25,185 nt of DNA from Candidatus Falkowbacteria bacterium (GTDB lineage Bacteria; Patescibacteriota; Patescibacteriia; Patescibacteriales; WJLG01): contig WJLG01000049.1 of assembly GCA_014728685.1 (NCBI GenBank), forward strand, positions 1 through 25,185. Reading direction: 5' to 3'. The position numbers and the translations under genes are program-made. This document shows, in pieces, positions 11,222-19,574 of the stretch. The notes under the pieces were generated by a model. The model did no database searches. It had not been told where the DNA came from and was given only the letters and a program-made list of their open reading frames with translations. Every line of letters begins with the position of its first letter. Positions within the stretch are counted from its first letter, which is position 1.

Positions 11222-11249
11222 TATAATGTTTGATTTAGTATATAAAAAA

Positions 11250-12191
11250 ATGAATACAAAAAATGATCCTAAAAATAAAAAGGCTGATATGAAAGCCTCC
11301 GCGCCAGGCAATAAAGTTGATATAAACAAATACCAAGATCTTGAAGGCGTAAGTATGAACAAATTAAGCTTTGGCTTGTGGTGGGTTAGGAATAAATCCA
11401 AGTTGAAATTATCTCTTATCATCATCTTGATAACCGCCTCTGTGGTCTCGTGGGGATATACGATCTTTCAGTGGTCTTATTACTTTGCGGTATTGCGCTC
11501 TCAAGACGAAGAAATGGTGCGGATAATGGCGGAAACGACAACCGTGCCCGTGGTTTACTTGAAAGCCAGGTCAGCCAAGAATGTAAGTATTTCATCGGTT
11601 TATATGCTTGAAGGAGGAGGGAAGCATGATCTTTATACTCTTGTTCAAAATCCAAATGAAAGACACTTGGGAAGATTGCCCTACTGCTTCATAAAGGGTG
11701 CGGAGAATATCGACTGCTCTGAGACTTTCGTTCTTCCGGGCCAAACAAAATATATTTTGTCATTGGCTCATGAATTTTCGAGCCGACCTAAGAATGTAAA
11801 ATTGAACATCAATAATATCACTTGGACCAGGATCGATCCGCATGAGATACCGAATTGGCAAGCCTTCCAGGAAGACCATCTTGATTTTTTGATAGAGGAT
11901 GTTAGTTTTACGCCCGCATCTCAGAATGAGCTTACCGAGAAGGTCAATCTTAATTTGTTGAATTTTTCAATAACCAATAATACACCTTATAGCTATTATG
12001 AAATGCCTTTGAATATTGTTTTAAAAAGAGGGAATAGAGTAGTGGCTGTCAATAAATACGTAATAAAGGATTTTGGATCGAACAAAAAAGAAGATATCTC
12101 GCTTAATTGGCCGGGCCACATAGGCAGTATAACCGAGGCTGAGATCAACGCGGATATAAATATATTAAGGCAAGATATTTACAGTCCATAA
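11250..12191 (+). CDS. Hypothetical bitopic membrane protein with a probable extracellular tandem beta-sandwich region
   Basis: One TM helix (LIIILITASVVSWGY) followed by beta-rich segments (DLYTLVQNPN, FSITNNT). Start 11250 chosen because ATG 11226 overlaps the promoter. Confidence 0.7.
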   Translation: MNTKNDPKNKKADMKASAPGNKVDINKYQDLEGVSMNKLSFGLWWVRNKSKLKLSLIIILITASVVSWGYTIFQWSYYFAVLRSQDEEMVRIMAETTTVPVVYLKARSAKNVSISSVYMLEGGGKHDLYTLVQNPNERHLGRLPYCFIKGAENIDCSETFVLPGQTKYILSLAHEFSSRPKNVKLNINNITWTRIDPHEIPNWQAFQEDHLDFLIEDVSFTPASQNELTEKVNLNLLNFSITNNTPYSYYEMPLNIVLKRGNRVVAVNKYVIKDFGSNKKEDISLNWPGHIGSITEAEINADINILRQDIYSP

Positions 12192-12225
12192 TTGCTAATA
12201 TTAGATAAAGGAGAATAAAAATGAA

Positions 12226-13329
12226 ATGAACAGGATATTTTTATATTTAAAGAATTTTGATTGGATAATATTTTCATCGGTCTTATTGCTTGCCTGTTTT
12301 GGACTGGTGGAAATATACAGTATCGCTCTCGGCAATGACGCTGCCGATTTTTTAAATTTTCAAAAACAAATCCTATTCATTTTTTCCGGCGTCGCTCTGC
12401 TGTTTATTTTTTCATTCATTGATTTTCATACGCTTAAGAATTGGAGTATTTATATTTATTTGGGTACGCTCGGGGTCTTGGGAGCGGTGTTGCTCTGGGG
12501 AGTTAACATCAGGGGCAGCCGCGCTTGGTTTTCGATCGCCGGCTTTAATATCCAACCGTCGGAATTCGCTAAAATAGTATTGATCATATTTCTGGCAAAA
12601 TTCTTTTCTTCTCGAGCTACAAAGAACAGACCCTTGAAACAACTCGTGCTGTCGGGCGTGGGCGCAATGGGCATTGCTATTTTTGTTTTTTTGCAGCCGG
12701 ATTTCGGATCAGCCCTGTTGCTTTTATCTATCTGGCTGCTCATGTTGATAATTACGGGATTTTCCAAAAAATATTTTATTATTTTGGGCATCATCCTGTT
12801 GGCCGGATCAATGATACTTTGGAATTTTTCCTTCAAGGATTACCAGAAGCAGAGGATACTCACTTTCTTAAACCCAACAGCCGACGCCCTTGACCAAGGA
12901 TACAATGTCAGCCAAGCGATGATAGCGGTCGGTTCAGGCCAATTGACCGGGCGAGGCCTGGGCTTTGGCTCCCAATCCCAATTAAAGTTCCTTCCTGAGG
13001 CGCAAAATGATTTTATTTTCGCCGTCATCTCCGAAGAGTTGGGACTCTTGGGTTGTCTGTCGGTCATACTTCTTTATACAGCTTTCTTTTTCAGATCTAT
13101 TGCTGTAATAAAGAAAATAAACAGTGATTTTGGCATTTTCTTTATTTTAGGCGCCTTGGGCTTGATTTTTATTGAAATGTTTATTAATATTAGTATGAAT
13201 ATAGGAATCCTCCCAGTGGTGGGGATTTCTTTGCCTTTTATTAGTTATGGAGGCAGTTCTATAATATCATCATTCATATTGGTGGGAATTATGGAAAATA
13301 TAATAATAAGATCAAAGATAAATTACTAA
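12226..13329 (+). CDS. rodA: Rod shape-determining SEDS glycosyltransferase RodA
   Basis: RAWF...IQPSEFAK, QPDFGS, YQKQRI, GYNVSQAMIAVGSG, LPEAQNDFIFAVISEELG, LPFISYGGSS. Confidence 0.9.
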   Translation: MNRIFLYLKNFDWIIFSSVLLLACFGLVEIYSIALGNDAADFLNFQKQILFIFSGVALLFIFSFIDFHTLKNWSIYIYLGTLGVLGAVLLWGVNIRGSRAWFSIAGFNIQPSEFAKIVLIIFLAKFFSSRATKNRPLKQLVLSGVGAMGIAIFVFLQPDFGSALLLLSIWLLMLIITGFSKKYFIILGIILLAGSMILWNFSFKDYQKQRILTFLNPTADALDQGYNVSQAMIAVGSGQLTGRGLGFGSQSQLKFLPEAQNDFIFAVISEELGLLGCLSVILLYTAFFFRSIAVIKKINSDFGIFFILGALGLIFIEMFINISMNIGILPVVGISLPFISYGGSSIISSFILVGIMENIIIRSKINY

Positions 13330-13355
13330 TATTACTAAAATAAGCAAAATATTGT

Positions 13356-14051
13356 ATGAAAAATGAAACAAAGACCTTTTCTGTGAAAACCAGGACAAAG
13401 GAAGAAAAAGCCAAAAATATCATCAATGATAATATGGTCCCTTGCGTTCTCTATGGTGCGCATGTAAAGGAAAATCTGCTTTTGAAAGTAGATAGAGTAC
13501 ATTTGGAAAAAACTTTTAAGCAGGCCGGTGAATCAACCTTATTAAGTCTGGAAATAGACGGAAAAGATAGCGGTAAAAAAGTTTTGATCAAAGACCTTCA
13601 AAAAGATCCGGTAAAGAACGATTTTCTTCATCTTGATCTCTATGAAGTTAATATGAAAGAGCCGATCCATGCCATGATCCATCTTAATTTTGTCGGCGAG
13701 TCATTGGCTGTTGATAAAAAGGGCGGTTCCTTGCTTAAAAACATGGATGAGATCGAAGTCAAATGTCTTCCGGGCGACTTGGTGAACCATATTGATATCG
13801 ACATATCCAGCTTGAACGACTTTGGCCAGTCGATCAAGATCGCTGATATAAAATTGCCGGAAGGAATGGAAGTTTTACATGAGAAAGAAGAAACCATCGC
13901 TATCGTATTAGAGCCTAAAGAAGAAAAAGAACCGGAAGCTCCGGTGGTTGAAGGAGAAGCAGGCGCTGAAGGCGAGGAAGCTAAAGCTGATGAAGGCAAG
14001 GCTGAAGAAAAAGCCAAAGCAGGCGCTGAAGGCGAGGAAGCTAAAAAATAA
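13356..14051 (+). CDS. rplY: 50S ribosomal protein bL25 (long Ctc type) with acidic tail
   Basis: VPCVLYG, LIKDLQKDPV...HLDLY, GESLAVDKKGG, EVKCLP..L...IDIDIS.L. Confidence 0.92.
   Translation: MKNETKTFSVKTRTKEEKAKNIINDNMVPCVLYGAHVKENLLLKVDRVHLEKTFKQAGESTLLSLEIDGKDSGKKVLIKDLQKDPVKNDFLHLDLYEVNMKEPIHAMIHLNFVGESLAVDKKGGSLLKNMDEIEVKCLPGDLVNHIDIDISSLNDFGQSIKIADIKLPEGMEVLHEKEETIAIVLEPKEEKEPEAPVVEGEAGAEGEEAKADEGKAEEKAKAGAEGEEAKK
13957..14045 (+). repeat. Perfect 29-bp direct repeat, two copies, period 60, inside the rplY tail
   Basis: AAGCAGGCGCTGAAGGCGAGGAAGCTAAA at 13957-13985 and 14017-14045; encodes AGAEGEEAK twice. Confidence 0.95.
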
Positions 14052-14060
14052 GATCACTAA

Positions 14061-15221
14061 ATGTCAAATATATCCAAGGAGGAGTTTGGTTCAAGCGAGC
14101 CAAATATTATTGACAAAGCTAAAAACTTCTTTAAGAACAGAACAAAGCTGTGGAAGATCCTTATGATCGCTTCCGTGGCTTTGTTTTTGTTTTGCTCGAT
14201 CATTCTGGCCAAAGTATCGATATCCTATTTTAAAACCGGAAAAATAACAACACCCGAGCTTTTACTTAATGACGAACAAAAAAAGGATGACAAACAAGAA
14301 GCAGTAATCTGCAACGAATGCGCGAGACGAAAGATAGACGGGGTTTATGTCCACGATGATATGGTCGATCCGCCCTTGGCCGCGGCCATGATCGATAATC
14401 ATTTTAACGCTCGTCCGCCAATAGGTCTTGATAAGGCCTCTTTGGTGATAGAAGCTGAGGTCGAAGGCCGCTTTACCCGATACTTAGCGGTTTTTGATAC
14501 AAGCCAAGACATAGATAAGATCGGCCCGATCAGAAGCGCTCGGCCTTATTTTGTCGACTGGGCTCAAGGCTTGAATGCTCTATATTGCCATTGCGGAGGA
14601 AGTCCGCAGGCCTTGGCGGAAATAATCCAGAAAGATATCAATGATCTCAATGAATTCTATAACGCTCCTTACTATTGGAGAGACAAAAGCCAATCCGCGC
14701 CACATAATATATATACTTCTACGGAAAAATTAAGAATATTACTTGAAAAACAAGAGATCAATAACAGCGATTTGGATGCTTGGTCATTCAAAGACGATCA
14801 AGCACTGTCTGAGCCGCAAGACACGGTCATAATGATCGATTTCCCACCAAATGATTTTAAGGTCAGGTGGGAATATAAAAAAGAAAATAACGCTTATTTG
14901 CGTTATTTAGGCGGGGAGAAGCACTTAACGGCCGATGATCAAGAGATCATTTCCAAGAATATCATCATTCAACGTTTACCGGCGCAAGTGATCGACGATA
15001 AATTAAGACTGGAGATGGAAACTCTTGGCCAAGGCCAGGCTATGATCTGCTTGGACGGCCAATGCTTGGACGGGTATTGGGATAAGCCAAGTTTGGAAGA
15101 GAGGACTAAATTCTATTACGAAGACGAGTCTGAAGTGAGTTTTAATGCCGGAACCACTTGGATAGAGGTTGTCAGGCCGGATGTTGAGATAAGGCTGAAT
15201 GACGATAAAGAAGAATTATAA
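14061..15221 (+). CDS. DUF3048 (YerB-like) membrane-anchored extracytoplasmic protein
   Basis: AAMIDNH..ARP..GL..A..V.E..VEG..TR, GPIRSARPYF, HCGGS, APHN.Y, G.TWIEVV. Confidence 0.88.
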   Translation: MSNISKEEFGSSEPNIIDKAKNFFKNRTKLWKILMIASVALFLFCSIILAKVSISYFKTGKITTPELLLNDEQKKDDKQEAVICNECARRKIDGVYVHDDMVDPPLAAAMIDNHFNARPPIGLDKASLVIEAEVEGRFTRYLAVFDTSQDIDKIGPIRSARPYFVDWAQGLNALYCHCGGSPQALAEIIQKDINDLNEFYNAPYYWRDKSQSAPHNIYTSTEKLRILLEKQEINNSDLDAWSFKDDQALSEPQDTVIMIDFPPNDFKVRWEYKKENNAYLRYLGGEKHLTADDQEIISKNIIIQRLPAQVIDDKLRLEMETLGQGQAMICLDGQCLDGYWDKPSLEERTKFYYEDESEVSFNAGTTWIEVVRPDVEIRLNDDKEEL

Positions 15222-16097
15222 TTTTATCGGCGGTCTTTTTTTTCCGGGGATCATGATCACAGCCAAGCGATAAGATCCGCTTAGGTCTTTCTTTATCTCA
15301 TAGTCGGCACTGGGCAATTCATCTTCTATTAATCTTTTTATCTTTTCCGGCTGACTTTCATCGATCTCACAGAGTAAAAATAAAGGATTGGATATCTTGC
15401 TTACGCGAATTTGCTTAAATAGTAAATGGTAATAGTCAAGGCCGTCATCACCGCCCAAAAGAGCCAATTGCGGTTCTTTTTTTATAGTCTTGGAATCTTT
15501 GACCTGCTTTGGAGTAAGATAGGGGAGATTGGCCAAGATAATAGCTGGTTCATTGAATTTCTTTTTCATCATTTCCCTTAAAAGATTAGAGCGGATGAAT
15601 TCGATCCTTGCACTTAATTTATGCTTCTTAGCGTTCTTTTTAGCTGTTTCCAAGGCTTTAGGGCTGATATCAAGCGCGTAAAGATCGGATTTCTCCCAAT
15701 TTTTTCCCAGCGCGACGGTGATGCAGCCGCTGCCGGTCCCGATATCTATGAAATTAACCTTTTCAAAATTGGCAGCGATCTTCAAAGCTTCATTTACCAT
15801 CAATTCTGTTTCCGGACGGGGGATAAGGACGTTCTTGTTGACCAGAAGATCAAGTCCGTAAAATTCTTTGCGTCCGACAAGGTAAGCCAAAGGAACGCCG
15901 GAAATCCTTCTTGCCAGTGCGACAATGAATTTCATGGATTCGGGGAGACTAAGCTCTTTTTCCGGATGAGTGAACAAGAATTCTCTCGGCTTTTTAAGGC
16001 AATGTGCCAAGAGCAGGCCGGCCTCGAGATCGACATTATCGATCTTCTTAGCCTTCAGCTTCTTCTTGCTTTTTGCAAGCGCTTGATTAATATTCAT
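15216..16097 (-). CDS. prmC: Release factor glutamine methyltransferase PrmC/HemK
   Basis: PLAYLVG.KEFYG, VLIPRPETE, DIGTGSGCI, ANLPY, ALLGGDDGLDYY; located next to prfA. Confidence 0.95.
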   Translation of the reverse strand: MNINQALAKSKKKLKAKKIDNVDLEAGLLLAHCLKKPREFLFTHPEKELSLPESMKFIVALARRISGVPLAYLVGRKEFYGLDLLVNKNVLIPRPETELMVNEALKIAANFEKVNFIDIGTGSGCITVALGKNWEKSDLYALDISPKALETAKKNAKKHKLSARIEFIRSNLLREMMKKKFNEPAIILANLPYLTPKQVKDSKTIKKEPQLALLGGDDGLDYYHLLFKQIRVSKISNPLFLLCEIDESQPEKIKRLIEDELPSADYEIKKDLSGSYRLAVIMIPGKKRPPIKL

Positions 16098-16111
16098 TTT
16101 TTATATATAAT
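16083..16111 (+). promoter_or_regulatory. Antisense sigma70 promoter overlapping the prmC start codon
   Basis: TTGATT (16083-16088), 17-nt spacer, TATAAT (16106-16111). The region is AT-rich, so a chance match is possible. Confidence 0.5.
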
Positions 16112-16117
16112 TATTTT

Positions 16118-16328
16118 ACAGATACGCTCTTTCTTTTGGCGGGGCCTCATCGGGAAAACCTCCTTTGAAAAAAAGGTTGAAAAGAGCAAATTTCTCGATG
16201 CTGGCCCCTTTGTCGGGATGTCGCTTGCTTTTGTAGTGTTTCTAGAAGAAGCTTTCTTTCCAAAGGGTGCAAGCGCTCCCGACTTATTTAACCGCCGATA
16301 TGCAAAATTAATATCCGGCGGTTTTTTT
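16118..16328 (+). ncRNA. Candidate structured non-coding RNA (two long hairpins plus terminator); family not recognised
   Basis: Hairpin A 16141-16208, hairpin B 16212-16283, terminator 16290-16328. G-U wobbles and the U-tract favour the plus strand. Confidence 0.5.
16290..16328 (+). terminator. Intrinsic terminator with its U-tract on the plus strand
   Basis: AACCGCCGATAT...ATATCCGGCGGTT followed by TTTTT. Confidence 0.65.
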
Positions 16329-16329
16329 A

Positions 16330-17373
16330 TCAGCCGAGTTCTTTTTCCGCCTCTTTGATGGCGCTGATTATCTTATCGAGATCACCATTTAAAATAGAGT
16401 CCATATTGCTCCAGTTCTTTTTTATGCGATGATCGGTTATTCTATCTTGAGGATAATTGTATGTTCTGATCTTCTCACTCCTGTCTCCGGACCCGATCTG
16501 CTGTTTTCTCTCGGCTGCCTCTTTGCCTAATCTTTCTTCTTCCAATTTGGCCAAAACGCGAGAACGCAATATCTGCATGGCTTTTTCTTTGTTTTGATGC
16601 TGGGATTTCTGATCTTGGCATTGAACGACCGTACCGGTAGGCAGGTGGGTGATCCTAACTGCTGAATTGGTAGTATTGACCTTTTGTCCGCCCGGACCGG
16701 AAGCGGCATAGGTGTCTATCCTTAGGTCATTGGGGCTGATCTCTATATCCACCTCTTCGGCTTCCGGCATCACAGCCACAGTGGCGGCTGAAGTATGGAC
16801 CCGACCTTGCTTTTCCGTTTCCGGCACTCTCTGCACCCTGTGCGTTCCGGCTTCGTATTTAAGCTGGCCATAGACATTGCTGCCGCTTATAGAAAAAATA
16901 ACTTCTTTAAAACCGCCGATACCGGTCTGGCTGGAATCAAGCATCTCCAGTTTCCAGCCTTGTTTTTCGGCAAAGCGGGAGTACATGCGGAAAAGATCGG
17001 CCGCGAACAAGGCTGATTCATCACCGCCGGTTCCGGCGCGTATTTCTATGATCACATCCTTAATATCATTGGGATCAGCCGGATTTAATTCTTGTTCGAC
17101 ATTTTCTTTTAGATCTTTGGCTCGAGCCTCCAGCTCAGGTAGTTCTTCTCGGGCCATAGCCTTGATCTCCTCGTCTTTTTCATTAGCCAGCACTTCTTTG
17201 TTCTGAGAGATCTCATTTTCCAATTTTTCCAATTCCAAGATCCTCTCTACCGGGCCTTTGAGCCGAGAGTGCTGTTTGGAAACTTTCATCAATTCCGCTT
17301 GATCATTGATAACTTGCGGATCGACCAGTCTTTTTTCCAATTCCTCAAATTCTTTTTTTGTATCTTCGTACAT
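16330..17373 (-). CDS. prfA: Peptide chain release factor 1
   Basis: [20 protein letters not shown] (PxT motif, RF1-specific), [14 protein letters not shown]. Confidence 0.97.
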
Positions 17374-17387
17374 AATGTTGCCTAATA

Positions 17388-17449
17388 TAAAACGGCTATT
17401 TGCTCATCTAATGTTTATTATAGCACAAAATGAGTAAATAGCCGTTTTA
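17388..17449. repeat. 20-bp inverted repeat (1 mismatch) between rpmE and prfA; its loop holds a minus-strand extended -10 (TGCTATAAT, 17425-17417)
   Basis: TAAAACGGCTATTTGCTCAT (17388-17407) and ATGAGTAAATAGCCGTTTTA (17430-17449). Confidence 0.85.
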
Positions 17450-17455
17450 AAATAT

Positions 17456-17770
17456 CTATTTTTTGGTTTTTTTCTTAGCGTCGCCGACTTTTTCAACTTT
17501 AGACGAAGCTTTGCGGGCAGCTTTAGCCGCTCTTTTAGCAGTGCGTCCAACTTTAGCGCCGGCCTTTTTCTGCTTTTCGACCTTAGCTTGGAATTTCTCG
17601 ACTCGGCGAGCAGTGTCAACCAATTTTTGCTTACCGGTATAAAAAGGATGGCAACTGGAACACAGATCGACCTGTATTTCCGGCTTAGTTGAGCCGGTGG
17701 CGAATGTGTTTCCGCAGGCGCAGATAACCTTAGCTTCCGGATAGTACTTAGGATGAATTTCTTTTTTCAT
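17456..17770 (-). CDS. rpmE: 50S ribosomal protein bL31 (Zn-binding type) with basic C-terminal extension
   Basis: [34 protein letters not shown]. Confidence 0.96.
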
Positions 17771-17865: not shown

Positions 17866-17907
17866 TTGACATTTATCCATATTTTAGCTATAAACAAATA
17901 AAGGAGG
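17866..17907 (+). promoter_or_regulatory. Promoter and Shine-Dalgarno of the small ORF at 17914
   Basis: TTGACA (17866-17871), 17-nt spacer, TATAAA (17889-17894); AAGGAGG at 17901-17907. Confidence 0.7.
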
Positions 17908-17913
17908 TGCGTC

Positions 17914-18009
17914 ATGAAAGATAATATATTCTATTTTTTCGCACTAATAAGCCATATGCTCCTTATATTTATTGGTATACCGATAATATCATTATTGCAT
18001 CTTTTTTAA
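17914..18009 (+). CDS. Small hydrophobic 31-aa peptide MKDNIFYFFALISHMLLIFIGIPIISLLHLF (not in the ORF track)
   Basis: ATG lies 6 nt after AAGGAGG. It has its own promoter and downstream terminator and a single TM-like stretch. Confidence 0.65.
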   Translation: MKDNIFYFFALISHMLLIFIGIPIISLLHLF

Positions 18010-18137: not shown

Positions 18138-19574
18138 ATGGAAAAAACTGTAAATATCACCAAGAACACCTCTTATCTGACTTTGGCTTTAATACTGCAA
18201 AAGCTGCTTTCTTTTACTTATTTTACGCTTTTGGCCCGCGATCTTGGCCCGGAAAATCTGGGAAAATATTATTTCGCCATTTCTTTTACGACCGTTTTTT
18301 CGATCTTCATCGATATCGGTATGATAAACTTGCTTACCAGAGAAGTGGCTAAGAGAAAAACCTCATCTTCAGAATTGCTGGGAAGCGTCCTGGCCGTAAA
18401 ATTGCCCTTGGTTATCCTAACCGCTGCCATCACCATGATCGCCACTAAGATCGGAGGCTATGATCCACTGCTTGCCAAGCTTATCTATATCTCACTTGCC
18501 TGCGTGATACTGGATTCATTCACTACGACCTTTTGGGCTGTGGCCAGAGGTTTTCATAATCTTATCTTTGAGAGCATATCCTCGGTGATCTTTATGATGA
18601 TAGTGATGAGCGCCGGCCTTTTTTTCCTTTACAACGGCTATGGACTGATATATTTAATGAGCGCCTTATTGATGGCCAGCACTTTTCATTTTTTATATTC
18701 GGCCATAGTCCTTTTAAAAAAATTCAAAGTATCCATCTTGCCGGTTTTTAATGGGGGACTGATGAAAAAGATGCTCATGACCACAATCCCTTTCGGGCTA
18801 TTTGCTGTCTTTCAAAGGCTTTATACCTATTTAGACTCAGTGCTTCTGGGCACTTTGGCCGGTAATGAATACGTAGGCTACTACCAAATATCATTCAAGA
18901 TAATCTTTGCCTTACAGTTCCTGCCAATGGCCTTTGTGGCTTCACTGTATCCGGCCATGAGCGAGTATTGGCATAGCAATCGAGAACAGCTCAAGACCAC
19001 TTTTGAAAAAGCGCTTATCTATCTGATGGTGATATCGATACCGATCAGCGCCGGCGTGATCGCTTTGGCTGATAAGATCATTCTGGTTTTCAAGGAAGGC
19101 TATGAGCCGGCGATCCTGCCTATGCAGATAATAATCTTATCTGTCTTTTTCATATTTATAAATTTCCCGATCGGCTCTCTTTTAAATGCCTGCGACCGCC
19201 AAAAGAGAAATACCGCCAATATGATCATCACCACTATTGCCAGTATCTTGCTCAATATCATATTGATCCCCAGATTCCAGGCTCTGGGCGCCAGCATCAC
19301 CGTCTTGGCGACCAATATTTTCATGAGCTCTCTGGGTATCTTCTGGGTATTTAAGATAATAAAATTCGATGTCAGAAGAGTCTTTTTGGCTTTCTTAAAG
19401 ATACTGCTGGCCGCGATCGTGATGGCTTTGCTGGTCTATTGGACCAAGGGGTATCTGAATACAATAATATCGATCCTCTTGGGAGCTTTTAGTTATTTTC
19501 TTTTTTTATTGCTATTAAAAACCATAAAAAAAGATGAGGTTAGGCATATCTGCGGTTCATTTTTAAAAAAATAA
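18138..19574 (+). CDS. Wzx-type oligosaccharide flippase (MOP superfamily)
   Basis: ARDLGPENLGKY, DIG....LTREVA, DSVLLG....EYVGYY, LYPAMS, LNIILIP...ALGA; about 14 TM. Confidence 0.9.
   Translation: MEKTVNITKNTSYLTLALILQKLLSFTYFTLLARDLGPENLGKYYFAISFTTVFSIFIDIGMINLLTREVAKRKTSSSELLGSVLAVKLPLVILTAAITMIATKIGGYDPLLAKLIYISLACVILDSFTTTFWAVARGFHNLIFESISSVIFMMIVMSAGLFFLYNGYGLIYLMSALLMASTFHFLYSAIVLLKKFKVSILPVFNGGLMKKMLMTTIPFGLFAVFQRLYTYLDSVLLGTLAGNEYVGYYQISFKIIFALQFLPMAFVASLYPAMSEYWHSNREQLKTTFEKALIYLMVISIPISAGVIALADKIILVFKEGYEPAILPMQIIILSVFFIFINFPIGSLLNACDRQKRNTANMIITTIASILLNIILIPRFQALGASITVLATNIFMSSLGIFWVFKIIKFDVRRVFLAFLKILLAAIVMALLVYWTKGYLNTIISILLGAFSYFLFLLLLKTIKKDEVRHICGSFLKK

What the first reader, a model, noticed from the sequence alone, without database searches (positions are those of the whole stretch)
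16083..16328. Candidate ~210-nt structured RNA with its own promoter and terminator, antisense between prfA and prmC
Seen: a 232-nt gap holds GC-rich stems in an AT-rich background. Hairpin A pairs GGGGCC with GGCCCC and CATCGGGAAA with TTTCTCGATG (16141-16208). Hairpin B pairs GTCGGGA with TCCCGAC, CGCTTGC with GCAAGCG, and TTTTG with CAAAG (16212-16283). A terminator follows. Three clues favour the plus strand, opposite to the flanking genes: G-U wobbles that become C-A mismatches on the minus strand, a U-tract only on plus, and TTGATT-17-TATAAT at 16083-16111 across the prmC start codon. Established: prfA and prmC normally abut. I do not recognise SRP, 6S, tmRNA or RNase P motifs here. Inference: a new sRNA, a regulator of RF1 methylation by transcriptional interference, or a non-autonomous palindromic mobile element.
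Basis: partly seen in the sequence, partly recalled or inferred. Interest (0 to 1): 0.72.

Follow-up and report, generated by a model that had tools for sequence, protein, structure and literature searches.

The report
Orphan antisense RNA unit between prfA and prmC
A 232-base spacer between two translation-termination genes of a tiny uncultured bacterium holds three real hairpins that look like a small, species-specific RNA gene read against the two genes, and it overlaps a possible 18-codon leader reading frame for the second gene, but nothing shows yet that either is expressed.

Summary
The prfA-prmC gap (16098-16329) carries hairpin A, hairpin B and a strong hairpin followed by seven U, plus TTGATT-17-TATAAT on the plus strand. 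It folds better than all 200 shuffles on either strand.

It matches no Rfam family. It is single copy in its 0.75 Mb genome, so it is not a MITE. It has no homologue in 151 genomes of its order, and the only other species of its genus has a 17-nt gap. Covariation therefore cannot be tested, and no sequencing run was available.

The G-U clue is not decisive: each strand's best fold has 3 wobble pairs. Support for the plus strand comes from polarity. Eleven of 27 relatives also carry unrelated units at this junction, nearly all with a promoter and terminator of the same antisense orientation.

AAAGGAGG, 8 nt, then ATG opens an 18-codon frame whose TGA overlaps the prmC ATG. This arises in 26 of 20,000 shuffles.

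Best reading (about 0.45): a young, lineage-specific antisense RNA gene acting in cis on prmC expression, possibly through that leader frame. Rivals are an mRNA-only element and a decaying relic. Interest is moderate.

The parts
16083..16111 (+). sigma-70-like promoter TTGATT-17-TATAAT. The -35 lies inside prmC codons 3-5, and the prmC ATG (16095-16097) lies in the spacer.
   Evidence: 10 of 12. Genome-wide, matches of at least 10 of 12 are about 6-fold denser in non-coding DNA.
16118..16328 (+). predicted non-coding RNA of about 210 nt. The start is inferred as about 7 nt after the -10 hexamer; the end is the U-tract.
   Evidence: inference. No plus-strand ORF has a Shine-Dalgarno sequence.
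16141..16208 (.). hairpin A: a 6 bp and a 10 bp stem closing a large A-rich, weakly paired apex
16158..16166 (+). ACCUCCUUU in the apex of hairpin A, identical to 9 nt of this genome's own 16S rRNA 3' tail (anti-SD). Mean unpaired probability is 0.37.
16212..16283 (.). hairpin B (stems of 7, 1, 7 and 5 bp)
16290..16328 (+). intrinsic terminator: stem AACCGCCG(AUAU)/(AUAU)CCGGCGGUU followed by seven U. On the minus strand the same hairpin is preceded by seven A and followed by UUAAAUAAGU.
16159..16166 (-). Shine-Dalgarno AAAGGAGG, 8 nt upstream of an ATG. It is paired in hairpin A (unpaired probability 0.15).
16094..16150 (-). 18-codon upstream ORF MRPRQKKERICKIIIYKK. Its TGA overlaps the prmC ATG (ATGA).
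15216..16097 (-). prmC (release-factor glutamine methyltransferase), the flanking gene
16330..17373 (-). prfA (RF1), the flanking gene; its stop is TGA followed directly by TAA

Best explanation
The gap holds a young, lineage-specific transcription unit on the plus strand. It consists of a sigma-70-type promoter (16083-16111), a non-coding RNA of about 210 nt made of two long hairpins, and a one-way intrinsic terminator that abuts the prfA stop codon.

The RNA is made convergently inside the rpmE-prfA-prmC operon, so it is fully complementary to the prfA-prmC intercistronic mRNA. I infer that it acts in cis. RNA polymerase at or from its promoter would collide with polymerase coming from prfA. 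The RNA could also pair with the mRNA over the ribosome-binding site of an 18-codon leader frame whose stop overlaps the prmC start. Either effect would lower PrmC output relative to RF1. RNase III, which could cut such a duplex, is encoded in the genome.

Shown: the hairpins, the signals and their polarity, the leader frame, single copy, and absence from relatives.

Inferred: that the RNA is made, that the leader frame is translated, and that either one affects prmC.
For: (1) The promoter-like site (10 of 12) and a strong hairpin plus seven U lie on the same strand at the two ends of the gap, bracketing both hairpins.

(2) Terminator motifs are meaningful in this genome. Under strict criteria, 90 of 98 lie outside ORFs and 58 of 98 lie within 150 nt downstream of a same-strand ORF. 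Here the nearest upstream plus-strand gene ends 1.1 kb away.

(3) Comparative polarity. In the 12 loci with a large prfA-prmC gap, 8 have a run of 5-7 A directly before a GC hairpin after the prfA stop, which is a terminator for the antisense strand, and one more is bidirectional. The best antisense promoter beats the best sense one in 11 of 12. Four of these gaps hold clear antisense ORFs of 100-147 aa. The genus-g3 unit shows compensatory pairs, with G-U pairs on the antisense strand.

(4) No plus-strand ORF in the gap has an SD, which points to a non-coding product.

(5) On the minus strand, AAAGGAGG-8-ATG opens an 18-codon frame that ends in an ATGA overlap with prmC. Of 24 such SD-ATG sites in the genome, 18 start ORFs of at least 50 aa. 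The whole arrangement arises in 26 of 20,000 shuffles of the gap, and in 617 of 20,000 when the SD is kept in place.

(6) RNase III is present.
Against: - There is no homologue by BLAST in 60 relatives or by covariance model in 150 other genomes of the order. There is also none in the family's gap loci with filters off. So no covariation and no evidence of selection.
- The only other species of the genus has a 17-nt gap, so the element is dispensable or recent.
- A 10-of-12 promoter match is expected about 0.2 times per strand in an intergenic region of this size.
- Folding does not favour a strand: z -4.37 against -4.67, and 3 G-U pairs each.
- The gap ranks only 15th of 108 intergenic regions for structure.
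- The leader frame's SD and ATG are buried in hairpin A (unpaired probability 0.15 and 0.00).
- prmC has no SD in the relatives either, so it does not need coupling.
- No other large-gap relative has such a leader frame.
- I noticed the leader frame after looking at the sequence, so its p-values are optimistic.
Confidence: 0.45

Rival explanations
1. Minus-strand element only. The hairpins are intercistronic mRNA structure in the prfA-prmC transcript. They would protect the upstream prfA message, or attenuate read-through, and gate a leader ORF that hands ribosomes to prmC. The plus-strand promoter and terminator would be unused or leftovers.
For: The minus strand folds as well as the plus strand (z -4.67). 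The SD-ATG leader frame with an ATGA overlap is hard to obtain by chance. The hairpin after the prfA stop lacks a downstream U-tract, so read-through into prmC is expected.
Against: On the mRNA strand the seven-A run lies on the wrong side of the hairpin for a terminator, and this matches the antisense terminators seen in relatives. The SD and ATG are sequestered. prmC lacks an SD in relatives and sits in an open A/U-rich stretch (unpaired 0.59), so it needs no coupling. The leader frame is unique to this genome.
Confidence: 0.2
2. Neutral relic. The junction once held an antisense cassette, as in many relatives. Most of it has been lost, and what remains (promoter, terminator, two palindromes) has no present function.
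For: This junction holds unrelated antisense units in 11 of 27 relatives, and each genus has its own. With L037 (233 nt), this is the shortest of them. There is no homologue, and the element is absent from the sister species.
Against: Two long, nearly perfect hairpins (-28.0 and -28.4 kcal/mol), an intact terminator and a 10-of-12 promoter would be expected to decay. The exact ATGA overlap of the leader frame is also unexpected in a relic.
Confidence: 0.2
3. Trans-acting sRNA. The plus-strand RNA uses the exposed ACCUCCUUU in the apex of hairpin A to pair with Shine-Dalgarno sequences of the minority of genes that carry a strong one.
For: The 9 nt are identical to this genome's own 16S 3' tail. 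CTCCTT lies on the antisense strand in 4 of 4 gaps of genera g1 and g2, and on the sense strand in 0 of 4, against a background of 4.2e-4 per nt. Only 42 of 157 AAGGAGG sites precede ORFs of at least 60 aa, so the possible target set is small.
Against: The motif is only partly open (0.37). On the other strand it is simply the SD of the leader frame. No extended complementarity to a specific target was sought. The recurrence of the motif was noticed after looking.
Confidence: 0.1
4. A divergent housekeeping RNA (6S or SRP RNA), or a REP/MITE-type repeat.
For: 6S was not found in this genome, and SRP RNA was not found in any of the 11 genomes of the family.
Against: No Rfam match even at E of 10 or less. 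Two side-by-side hairpins are not a rod with a central bubble. No GNRA-capped helix-8-like motif was seen. Ffh and FtsY were also not found, so no SRP RNA is expected. Three family genomes have no gap at this site at all. The element is single copy.
Confidence: 0.03

Closest known systems
Antisense RNA plus leader-peptide coupling in plasmid replication control (R1 CopA/CopT-tap-repA; ColIb-P9 Inc RNA-repY-repZ); recalled, not from a call
   Same: A short, stem-loop-rich antisense RNA is encoded opposite the leader of the controlled gene. A short leader ORF with its own SD has a stop that overlaps the start of the downstream gene, so blocking the leader blocks the gene.
   Different: This case is chromosomal and sits inside a translation-factor operon. 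It has no homology to the plasmid systems. Expression of both partners is unproven. prmC probably can start translation without coupling.
hok/mok/sok type I toxin-antitoxin logic; recalled
   Same: A cis-antisense RNA covers the ribosome-binding site of an overlapping leader frame to which the main gene is coupled, and that site is buried in mRNA structure.
   Different: The downstream gene is a housekeeping methyltransferase, not a toxin. The leader peptide is basic, not hydrophobic.
Intercistronic stem-loops that set expression ratios within operons (e.g. REP in malE-malF); recalled
   Same: GC-rich hairpins sit between two co-transcribed genes that are needed at different levels.
   Different: REP elements are multi-copy, whereas this is single copy. 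The only U-tract is on the opposite strand.
C/U-rich seed sRNAs of Gram-positive bacteria that pair with SD regions (RsaE/RoxS, LhrC family). The motif details are recalled; for LhrC I saw only a search listing and abstract and unrelated passages
   Same: A C/U-rich motif complementary to the SD is displayed in a hairpin apex.
   Different: There is one motif, not several. No homology and no target evidence.
The genus-g3 antisense structured RNA at the same junction, found here (L019, L021, L029, L033)
   Same: Same site and same polarity. The promoter lies next to the prmC start and the terminator next to the prfA stop. It contains an SD/anti-SD hairpin.
   Different: It is 300-400 nt with a different fold and carries a small SD-led ORF on the antisense strand. 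Its covariance model R2 does not hit the window's genome, and R1 does not hit g3.

Membership tests
Rfam families (6S RF00013, SRP RF00169/RF01854, tmRNA RF00023, RNase P RF00010 and all others) | match to the family covariance model | tested here: not met
   No match at gathering score in the window. At E of 10 or less, only two chance-level matches in 15950-16480. RNase P and tmRNA are found elsewhere in the family's genomes.
Intrinsic (Rho-independent) terminator | GC-rich stem-loop followed directly by a U-tract on the transcribed strand | tested here: met
   16290-16323 stem and seven T at 16322-16328 on the plus strand; -15.1 kcal/mol. The simple scanner missed it because the loop is longer than 8 nt. 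Function was not tested.
Sigma-70 promoter | -35 and -10 hexamers at 16-18 nt spacing, placed upstream of the transcribed element | tested here: met
   TTGATT-17-TATAAT, 10 of 12. This is a consensus match only; chance expectation is about 0.2 per strand for a gap of this size.
Conserved structured RNA (riboswitch, ribozyme or sRNA family) | homologues with compensatory base changes | not testable with these tools
   No homologue in 60 relatives by BLAST. None in 150 other genomes of the order by model R1. None in family loci with filters off: best E 0.068, not at the junction.
REP / MITE-type dispersed repeat | many copies in the genome | tested here: not met
   Only the locus itself matches in full. 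The other matches are 14-40 nt with E of 0.02 or more. The assembly is 88.5% complete.
Cis-antisense RNA with leader-ORF coupling (CopA-tap-repA-like) | leader ORF with an SD whose stop overlaps the start of the controlled gene | tested here: met
   AAAGGAGG-8-ATG, 18 codons, ATGA overlap. Arises in 26 of 20,000 shuffles.
Cis-antisense RNA with leader-ORF coupling (CopA-tap-repA-like) | antisense RNA and leader peptide both expressed; the downstream gene depends on leader translation | not testable with these tools
   No sequencing run was listed. prmC lacks an SD in relatives too, so dependence is doubtful.
Anti-SD seed sRNA | C/U-rich motif single-stranded in a loop | tested here: inconclusive
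   Mean unpaired probability is 0.37 for ACCUCCUUU and 0.52 for the apex 16155-16192.

The most novel reading that the evidence does not exclude
The prfA-prmC junction of this order may be a favoured landing site for convergent antisense units. In this genome, one such unit may have become a CopA/tap-like controller. An antisense RNA of about 210 nt would cover the buried ribosome-binding site of an 18-codon, UGA-terminated leader frame coupled to prmC, and so set how much release-factor methyltransferase is made per RF1. That would be an antisense/leader-peptide switch on a core translation-termination operon in a reduced, uncultured bacterium.
Probability: 0.2. Interest if true: 0.6.

Novelty: new member of a known kind. 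Interest (0 to 1): 0.38.

Why it matters
If real, it would be one of very few regulatory RNAs proposed for an ultra-small uncultured bacterium. It would also be a case where the ratio of RF1 to its methyltransferase is tuned by antisense transcription.

The comparative picture may matter more than the single element. In this order the prfA-prmC junction is repeatedly occupied by unrelated, genus-specific antisense units, one of them a covarying structured RNA. This suggests either selection for convergent transcription at this point or an insertion hot spot.

As it stands, the element is an orphan with no expression or conservation evidence. It is a candidate, not a discovery.

Tried and rejected
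Known RNA families. Rfam at gathering score on the whole window gave nothing. At E of 10 or less on 15950-16480 it gave only chance-level matches. Rfam at E of 0.1 or less on 12 relatives' loci gave one chance-level hit. ARAGORN on 8 loci found no tRNA or tmRNA.

Repeat or MITE. Rejected: the element is single copy.

Homologues. BLAST of the gap against 60 relatives gave only fragments of 19-35 nt. Model R1 found only itself among 151 genomes of the order. With filters off on 10 family loci the best E was 0.068, and the hit was not at the junction.

Link to the genus-g3 RNA. Rejected. MAFFT alignment shows no common core with g2 or with the window. Model R2 hits g3 only, 4 of 4 genomes, among the 151 searched.

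Strand call by wobble pairs or energy. Not decisive.

My first terminator scan was too loose to be useful: 611 hits, 343 of them inside ORFs. I replaced it with a strict scan.

A 7-nt complement between the plus-strand leader and the apex of hairpin A (16126-16132/16181-16187) could form a pseudoknot. About 1.6 such pairs are expected by chance in this stretch, so I did not pursue it.

SRP RNA idea. A recalled helix-8-like regular expression gave 4 hits across the genome, none convincing.

Expression. No sequencing run was listed for 15200-17400, and no RNA holder was listed.

Literature. Five searches listed nothing on an RNA between prfA and prmC or on regulatory RNAs of this group. I saw listings and abstract starts only. 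I also read passages of PMC13350326, where 'prmC' turned out to be the vector pRMC2. In PMC10768705 the SRP genes named carry the locus-tag prefix APY09, which I took to be the host's. Supplements were not consulted.

I did not use the look-up of encoding contigs, which is stated to be closed.

Full report
**What is there.** The window is one 25,185-base contig (C31) of a 748,920-base, 115-contig assembly, 88.5% complete and 41.7% G+C. On the minus strand lie rpmE (17456-17770), prfA (16330-17373) and prmC (15216-16097), all confirmed by Pfam. Between prfA and prmC are 232 bases (16098-16329).

- Hairpin A, 16141-16208.
- Hairpin B, 16212-16283.
- A third hairpin with arms at 16290-16297 and 16316-16323, followed by seven T.

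The region folds at -75.1 kcal/mol on the plus strand (z -4.37) and -69.6 on the minus strand (z -4.67). No shuffle out of 200 does as well on either strand. The structure is real, but it is a property of the DNA palindromes and does not choose a strand by itself. Among 108 intergenic regions of 150-400 nt in this genome, the gap ranks 15th for folding energy per base. That is strong but not exceptional.

**What it is not.**
- It is in no Rfam family: no match in the window at gathering score, and two chance-level matches at E of 10 or less.
- RNase P RNA and tmRNA are found elsewhere in all or most genomes of the family.
- It is not a dispersed repeat. Only the locus itself matches in full.
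- It has no detectable relative. BLAST found nothing in 60 relatives. A covariance model of hairpins A and B (R1) found only itself among 151 genomes of the order. It found nothing credible in the family's own junction loci with filters off.
- The one other species of the genus has 17 nt between prfA and prmC.

No public sequencing run could be listed.

**Which strand.** The best fold of each strand has three G-U pairs, and the energies per hairpin differ by 1-3 kcal/mol. In the apex of hairpin A the wobble actually favours the minus strand.

What does favour the plus strand is the pairing of signals:
- TTGATT-17-TATAAT (10 of 12) sits at the prmC end.
- A hairpin with seven U sits at the prfA end. 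On the minus strand the same hairpin is preceded by seven A and followed by UUAAAUAAGU.

In this genome, strict terminator motifs are specific. Ninety of 98 lie outside ORFs, and 58 lie just downstream of a same-strand ORF. Promoter-like matches of at least 10 of 12 are about six times denser in non-coding DNA: 229 of 409 fall in roughly 18% of the sequence. That still leaves about 0.2 expected by chance in a gap of this size.

**The neighbours' junctions.** I took the 30 best PrmC loci out of the 40 genomes with a match, from 41 searched including G000. The other 10 genomes with a match were not examined. In 28 of the 30, both genes lie on the locus; L032 and L040 lack prfA.
- Sixteen have gaps of -4 to 47 nt.
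- Twelve, including the window, have gaps of 229-1036 nt by the script's count. It measures the window's gap as 229 nt because it starts 3 nt past the stop.
- Within the window's own family (11 genomes in total), 8 have a large gap and 3 do not.

The contents are unrelated to one another:
- Four gaps from other families hold antisense ORFs of 100-147 aa with no Pfam family.
- The four genomes of genus g3 share an antisense RNA of 300-400 nt. Sixteen of its 48 predicted pairs are kept through changes on both sides, and it carries a small SD-led ORF. Its model R2 finds it in g3 only.
- The three g2 gaps differ again.

The polarity, however, is shared. In 8 of the 12 large gaps a run of 5-7 A directly precedes a GC hairpin after the prfA stop, and a ninth is bidirectional. 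The best antisense promoter scores 9-11 of 12 in 11 loci, and it beats the best sense promoter (7-9) in 11 of 12. Antisense units with exactly this layout are therefore the rule at this junction. That is the best support for reading the window's element in the same way. No plus-strand ORF in the gap has an SD, so its product would be non-coding.

The complement of the hairpin A apex reads AAAGGAGG, then 8 nt, then ATG. It opens an 18-codon frame (MRPRQKKERICKIIIYKK, 16150-16094) whose TGA overlaps the prmC ATG as ATGA.
- The genome has a canonical 16S tail.
- Of its 24 AAAGGAGG-N4-10-ATG sites, 18 start ORFs of at least 50 aa.
- An SD, an ATG and a stop within -12 to +4 nt of the prmC start arise in 26 of 20,000 dinucleotide shuffles of the gap. 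They arise in 617 of 20,000 if the SD is kept and only the downstream part is shuffled.

Against a working leader frame:
- Its SD and ATG are buried in hairpin A, with unpaired probabilities of 0.15 and 0.00.
- prmC has no SD in the relatives either, and here it sits in an open A/U-rich stretch.
- No other large-gap relative has such a frame.
- I found it by looking, so the p-values flatter it.

On the plus strand the same nine bases, ACCUCCUUU, copy the 16S anti-SD. CTCCTT lies on the antisense strand in all four gaps of genera g1 and g2 and on the sense strand in none, against a background of 4.2e-4 per base. This was also noticed only after looking.

**Most likely mechanism.** Both strands carry signals that are individually unlikely by chance. 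The reading that uses all of them is a convergent, cis-encoded antisense RNA lying over the leader of prmC. RNA polymerase at the plus promoter sits on the prmC start region, facing polymerase arriving from prfA. The RNA is complementary to the mRNA from 21 nt upstream of the prmC ATG to the prfA stop, including the leader frame's SD, its ATG and its first eleven codons. RNase III is encoded. The expected net effect is less PrmC per RF1.

This is the logic of CopA/tap/repA and of hok/mok/sok. Both comparisons are recalled, not tested.

My estimates:
- About 0.6 that a plus-strand RNA is made.
- About 0.45 for the cis-acting reading as a whole.
- About 0.2 for the full antisense-plus-leader switch.

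The rivals are an mRNA-only structure with a leader frame (0.2), a neutral relic of a lost cassette (0.2), a trans-acting anti-SD sRNA (0.1), and a divergent housekeeping RNA or repeat (0.03).

**Verdict.** The element is an orphan candidate of a known kind. Interest is moderate, and it comes mainly from the recurrent antisense occupancy of this junction and from the leader-frame overlap.

**Side observation.** SRP RNA models found nothing in any of the 11 genomes of the family. The protein searches also came back empty:
- The Ffh M domain: 0 of 11 family genomes.
- The SRP54-type GTPase domain of Ffh and FtsY: 0 of 5 family genomes.
- The same domain: 0 of 101 genomes of the order, 72 of them at least 90% complete.
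- The same domain: 2 of 301 genomes sampled from the phylum, where only 10 candidates per genome were scored.
- E. coli Ffh as query: 1 of 5 chosen genomes. The four without a match are 99-100% complete, two of them single contigs. The single hit lies at a contig end.
- tblastn of E. coli Ffh against the window's genome: best E 0.33, while 4 of 6 control proteins from the same E. coli locus were found.

I could not find this discussed in three literature searches (listings only). It may be already known, or it may be an artefact of the held genomes. It does remove any reason to expect an SRP RNA at this site.

Noticed in passing
whole genome G000 and relatives (not in the window): The SRP pathway was not detected.
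- SRP RNA models RF00169 and RF01854: 0 of 11 family genomes.
- Ffh M domain PF02978: 0 of 11.
- SRP54 GTPase domain PF00448 (Ffh/FtsY): 0 of 101 genomes of the order (72 at least 90% complete) and 2 of 301 phylum genomes.
- E. coli Ffh as query: no hit in four 99-100% complete genomes, two of them single contigs.
- tblastn against G000: best E 0.33.
The controls detected the families in well-known genomes. This may be already known or a data artefact, and it needs independent checking.
   Followed up: partly
L019:2371-2784(+), L021:465-1500(-), L029:765-1497(-), L033:2392-3108(+): Genus g3 carries a conserved structured RNA of 300-400 nt, antisense between prfA and prmC. Sixteen of its 48 predicted pairs are kept through changes on both sides. 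It has an SD/anti-SD hairpin around the start of a small ORF of about 31-35 aa (consensus roughly M-x-x-Q/R-L-L/F-K...KGGD). It has no Rfam match. Model R2 finds one copy in each of the 4 g3 genomes and none in the other 147 genomes searched.
   Followed up: partly
L025:1069-1449(-), L042:2452-2895(+), L043:1169-1531(-), L045:2617-2919(+): In four genomes from other families of the order, the prfA-prmC junction holds unrelated antisense ORFs of 100-147 aa with no Pfam family. The junction looks like a hot spot for small antisense cassettes.
   Followed up: partly
window 17900-18009 (+): AAAGGAGG, 6 nt, then ATG opens a 31-codon, strongly hydrophobic ORF (MKDNIFYFFALISHMLLIFIGIPIISLLHLF) in the divergent gap between rpmE and the polysaccharide-biosynthesis gene at 18138. 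It may be a small membrane peptide.
   Followed up: no
window 15216-15221: The convergent plus-strand operon (11226-15221, ending in a DUF3048 gene) and prmC overlap by 6 nt at their 3' ends. That leaves no room for a terminator between them, so plus-strand read-through would run antisense across prmC towards the terminator at 16290-16328.
   Followed up: no
window 15621-16358 (+): A 245-codon open frame antisense to prmC runs through the whole gap. It has no Pfam family and is probably a shadow ORF. The gap is also open for 75 codons on the minus strand in the leader frame's reading frame.
   Followed up: no
G000:C97:1063-1766: The RNase P RNA match in the window's genome spans 704 nt, against 403-503 nt in the ten relatives, and scores lower (120 bits). 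This suggests a large insertion.
   Followed up: no
G000 whole genome: Strong Shine-Dalgarno use is limited. Only 42 of 157 AAGGAGG sites precede ORFs of at least 60 aa, out of roughly 650 ORFs. prmC has no SD in the relatives examined.
   Followed up: partly
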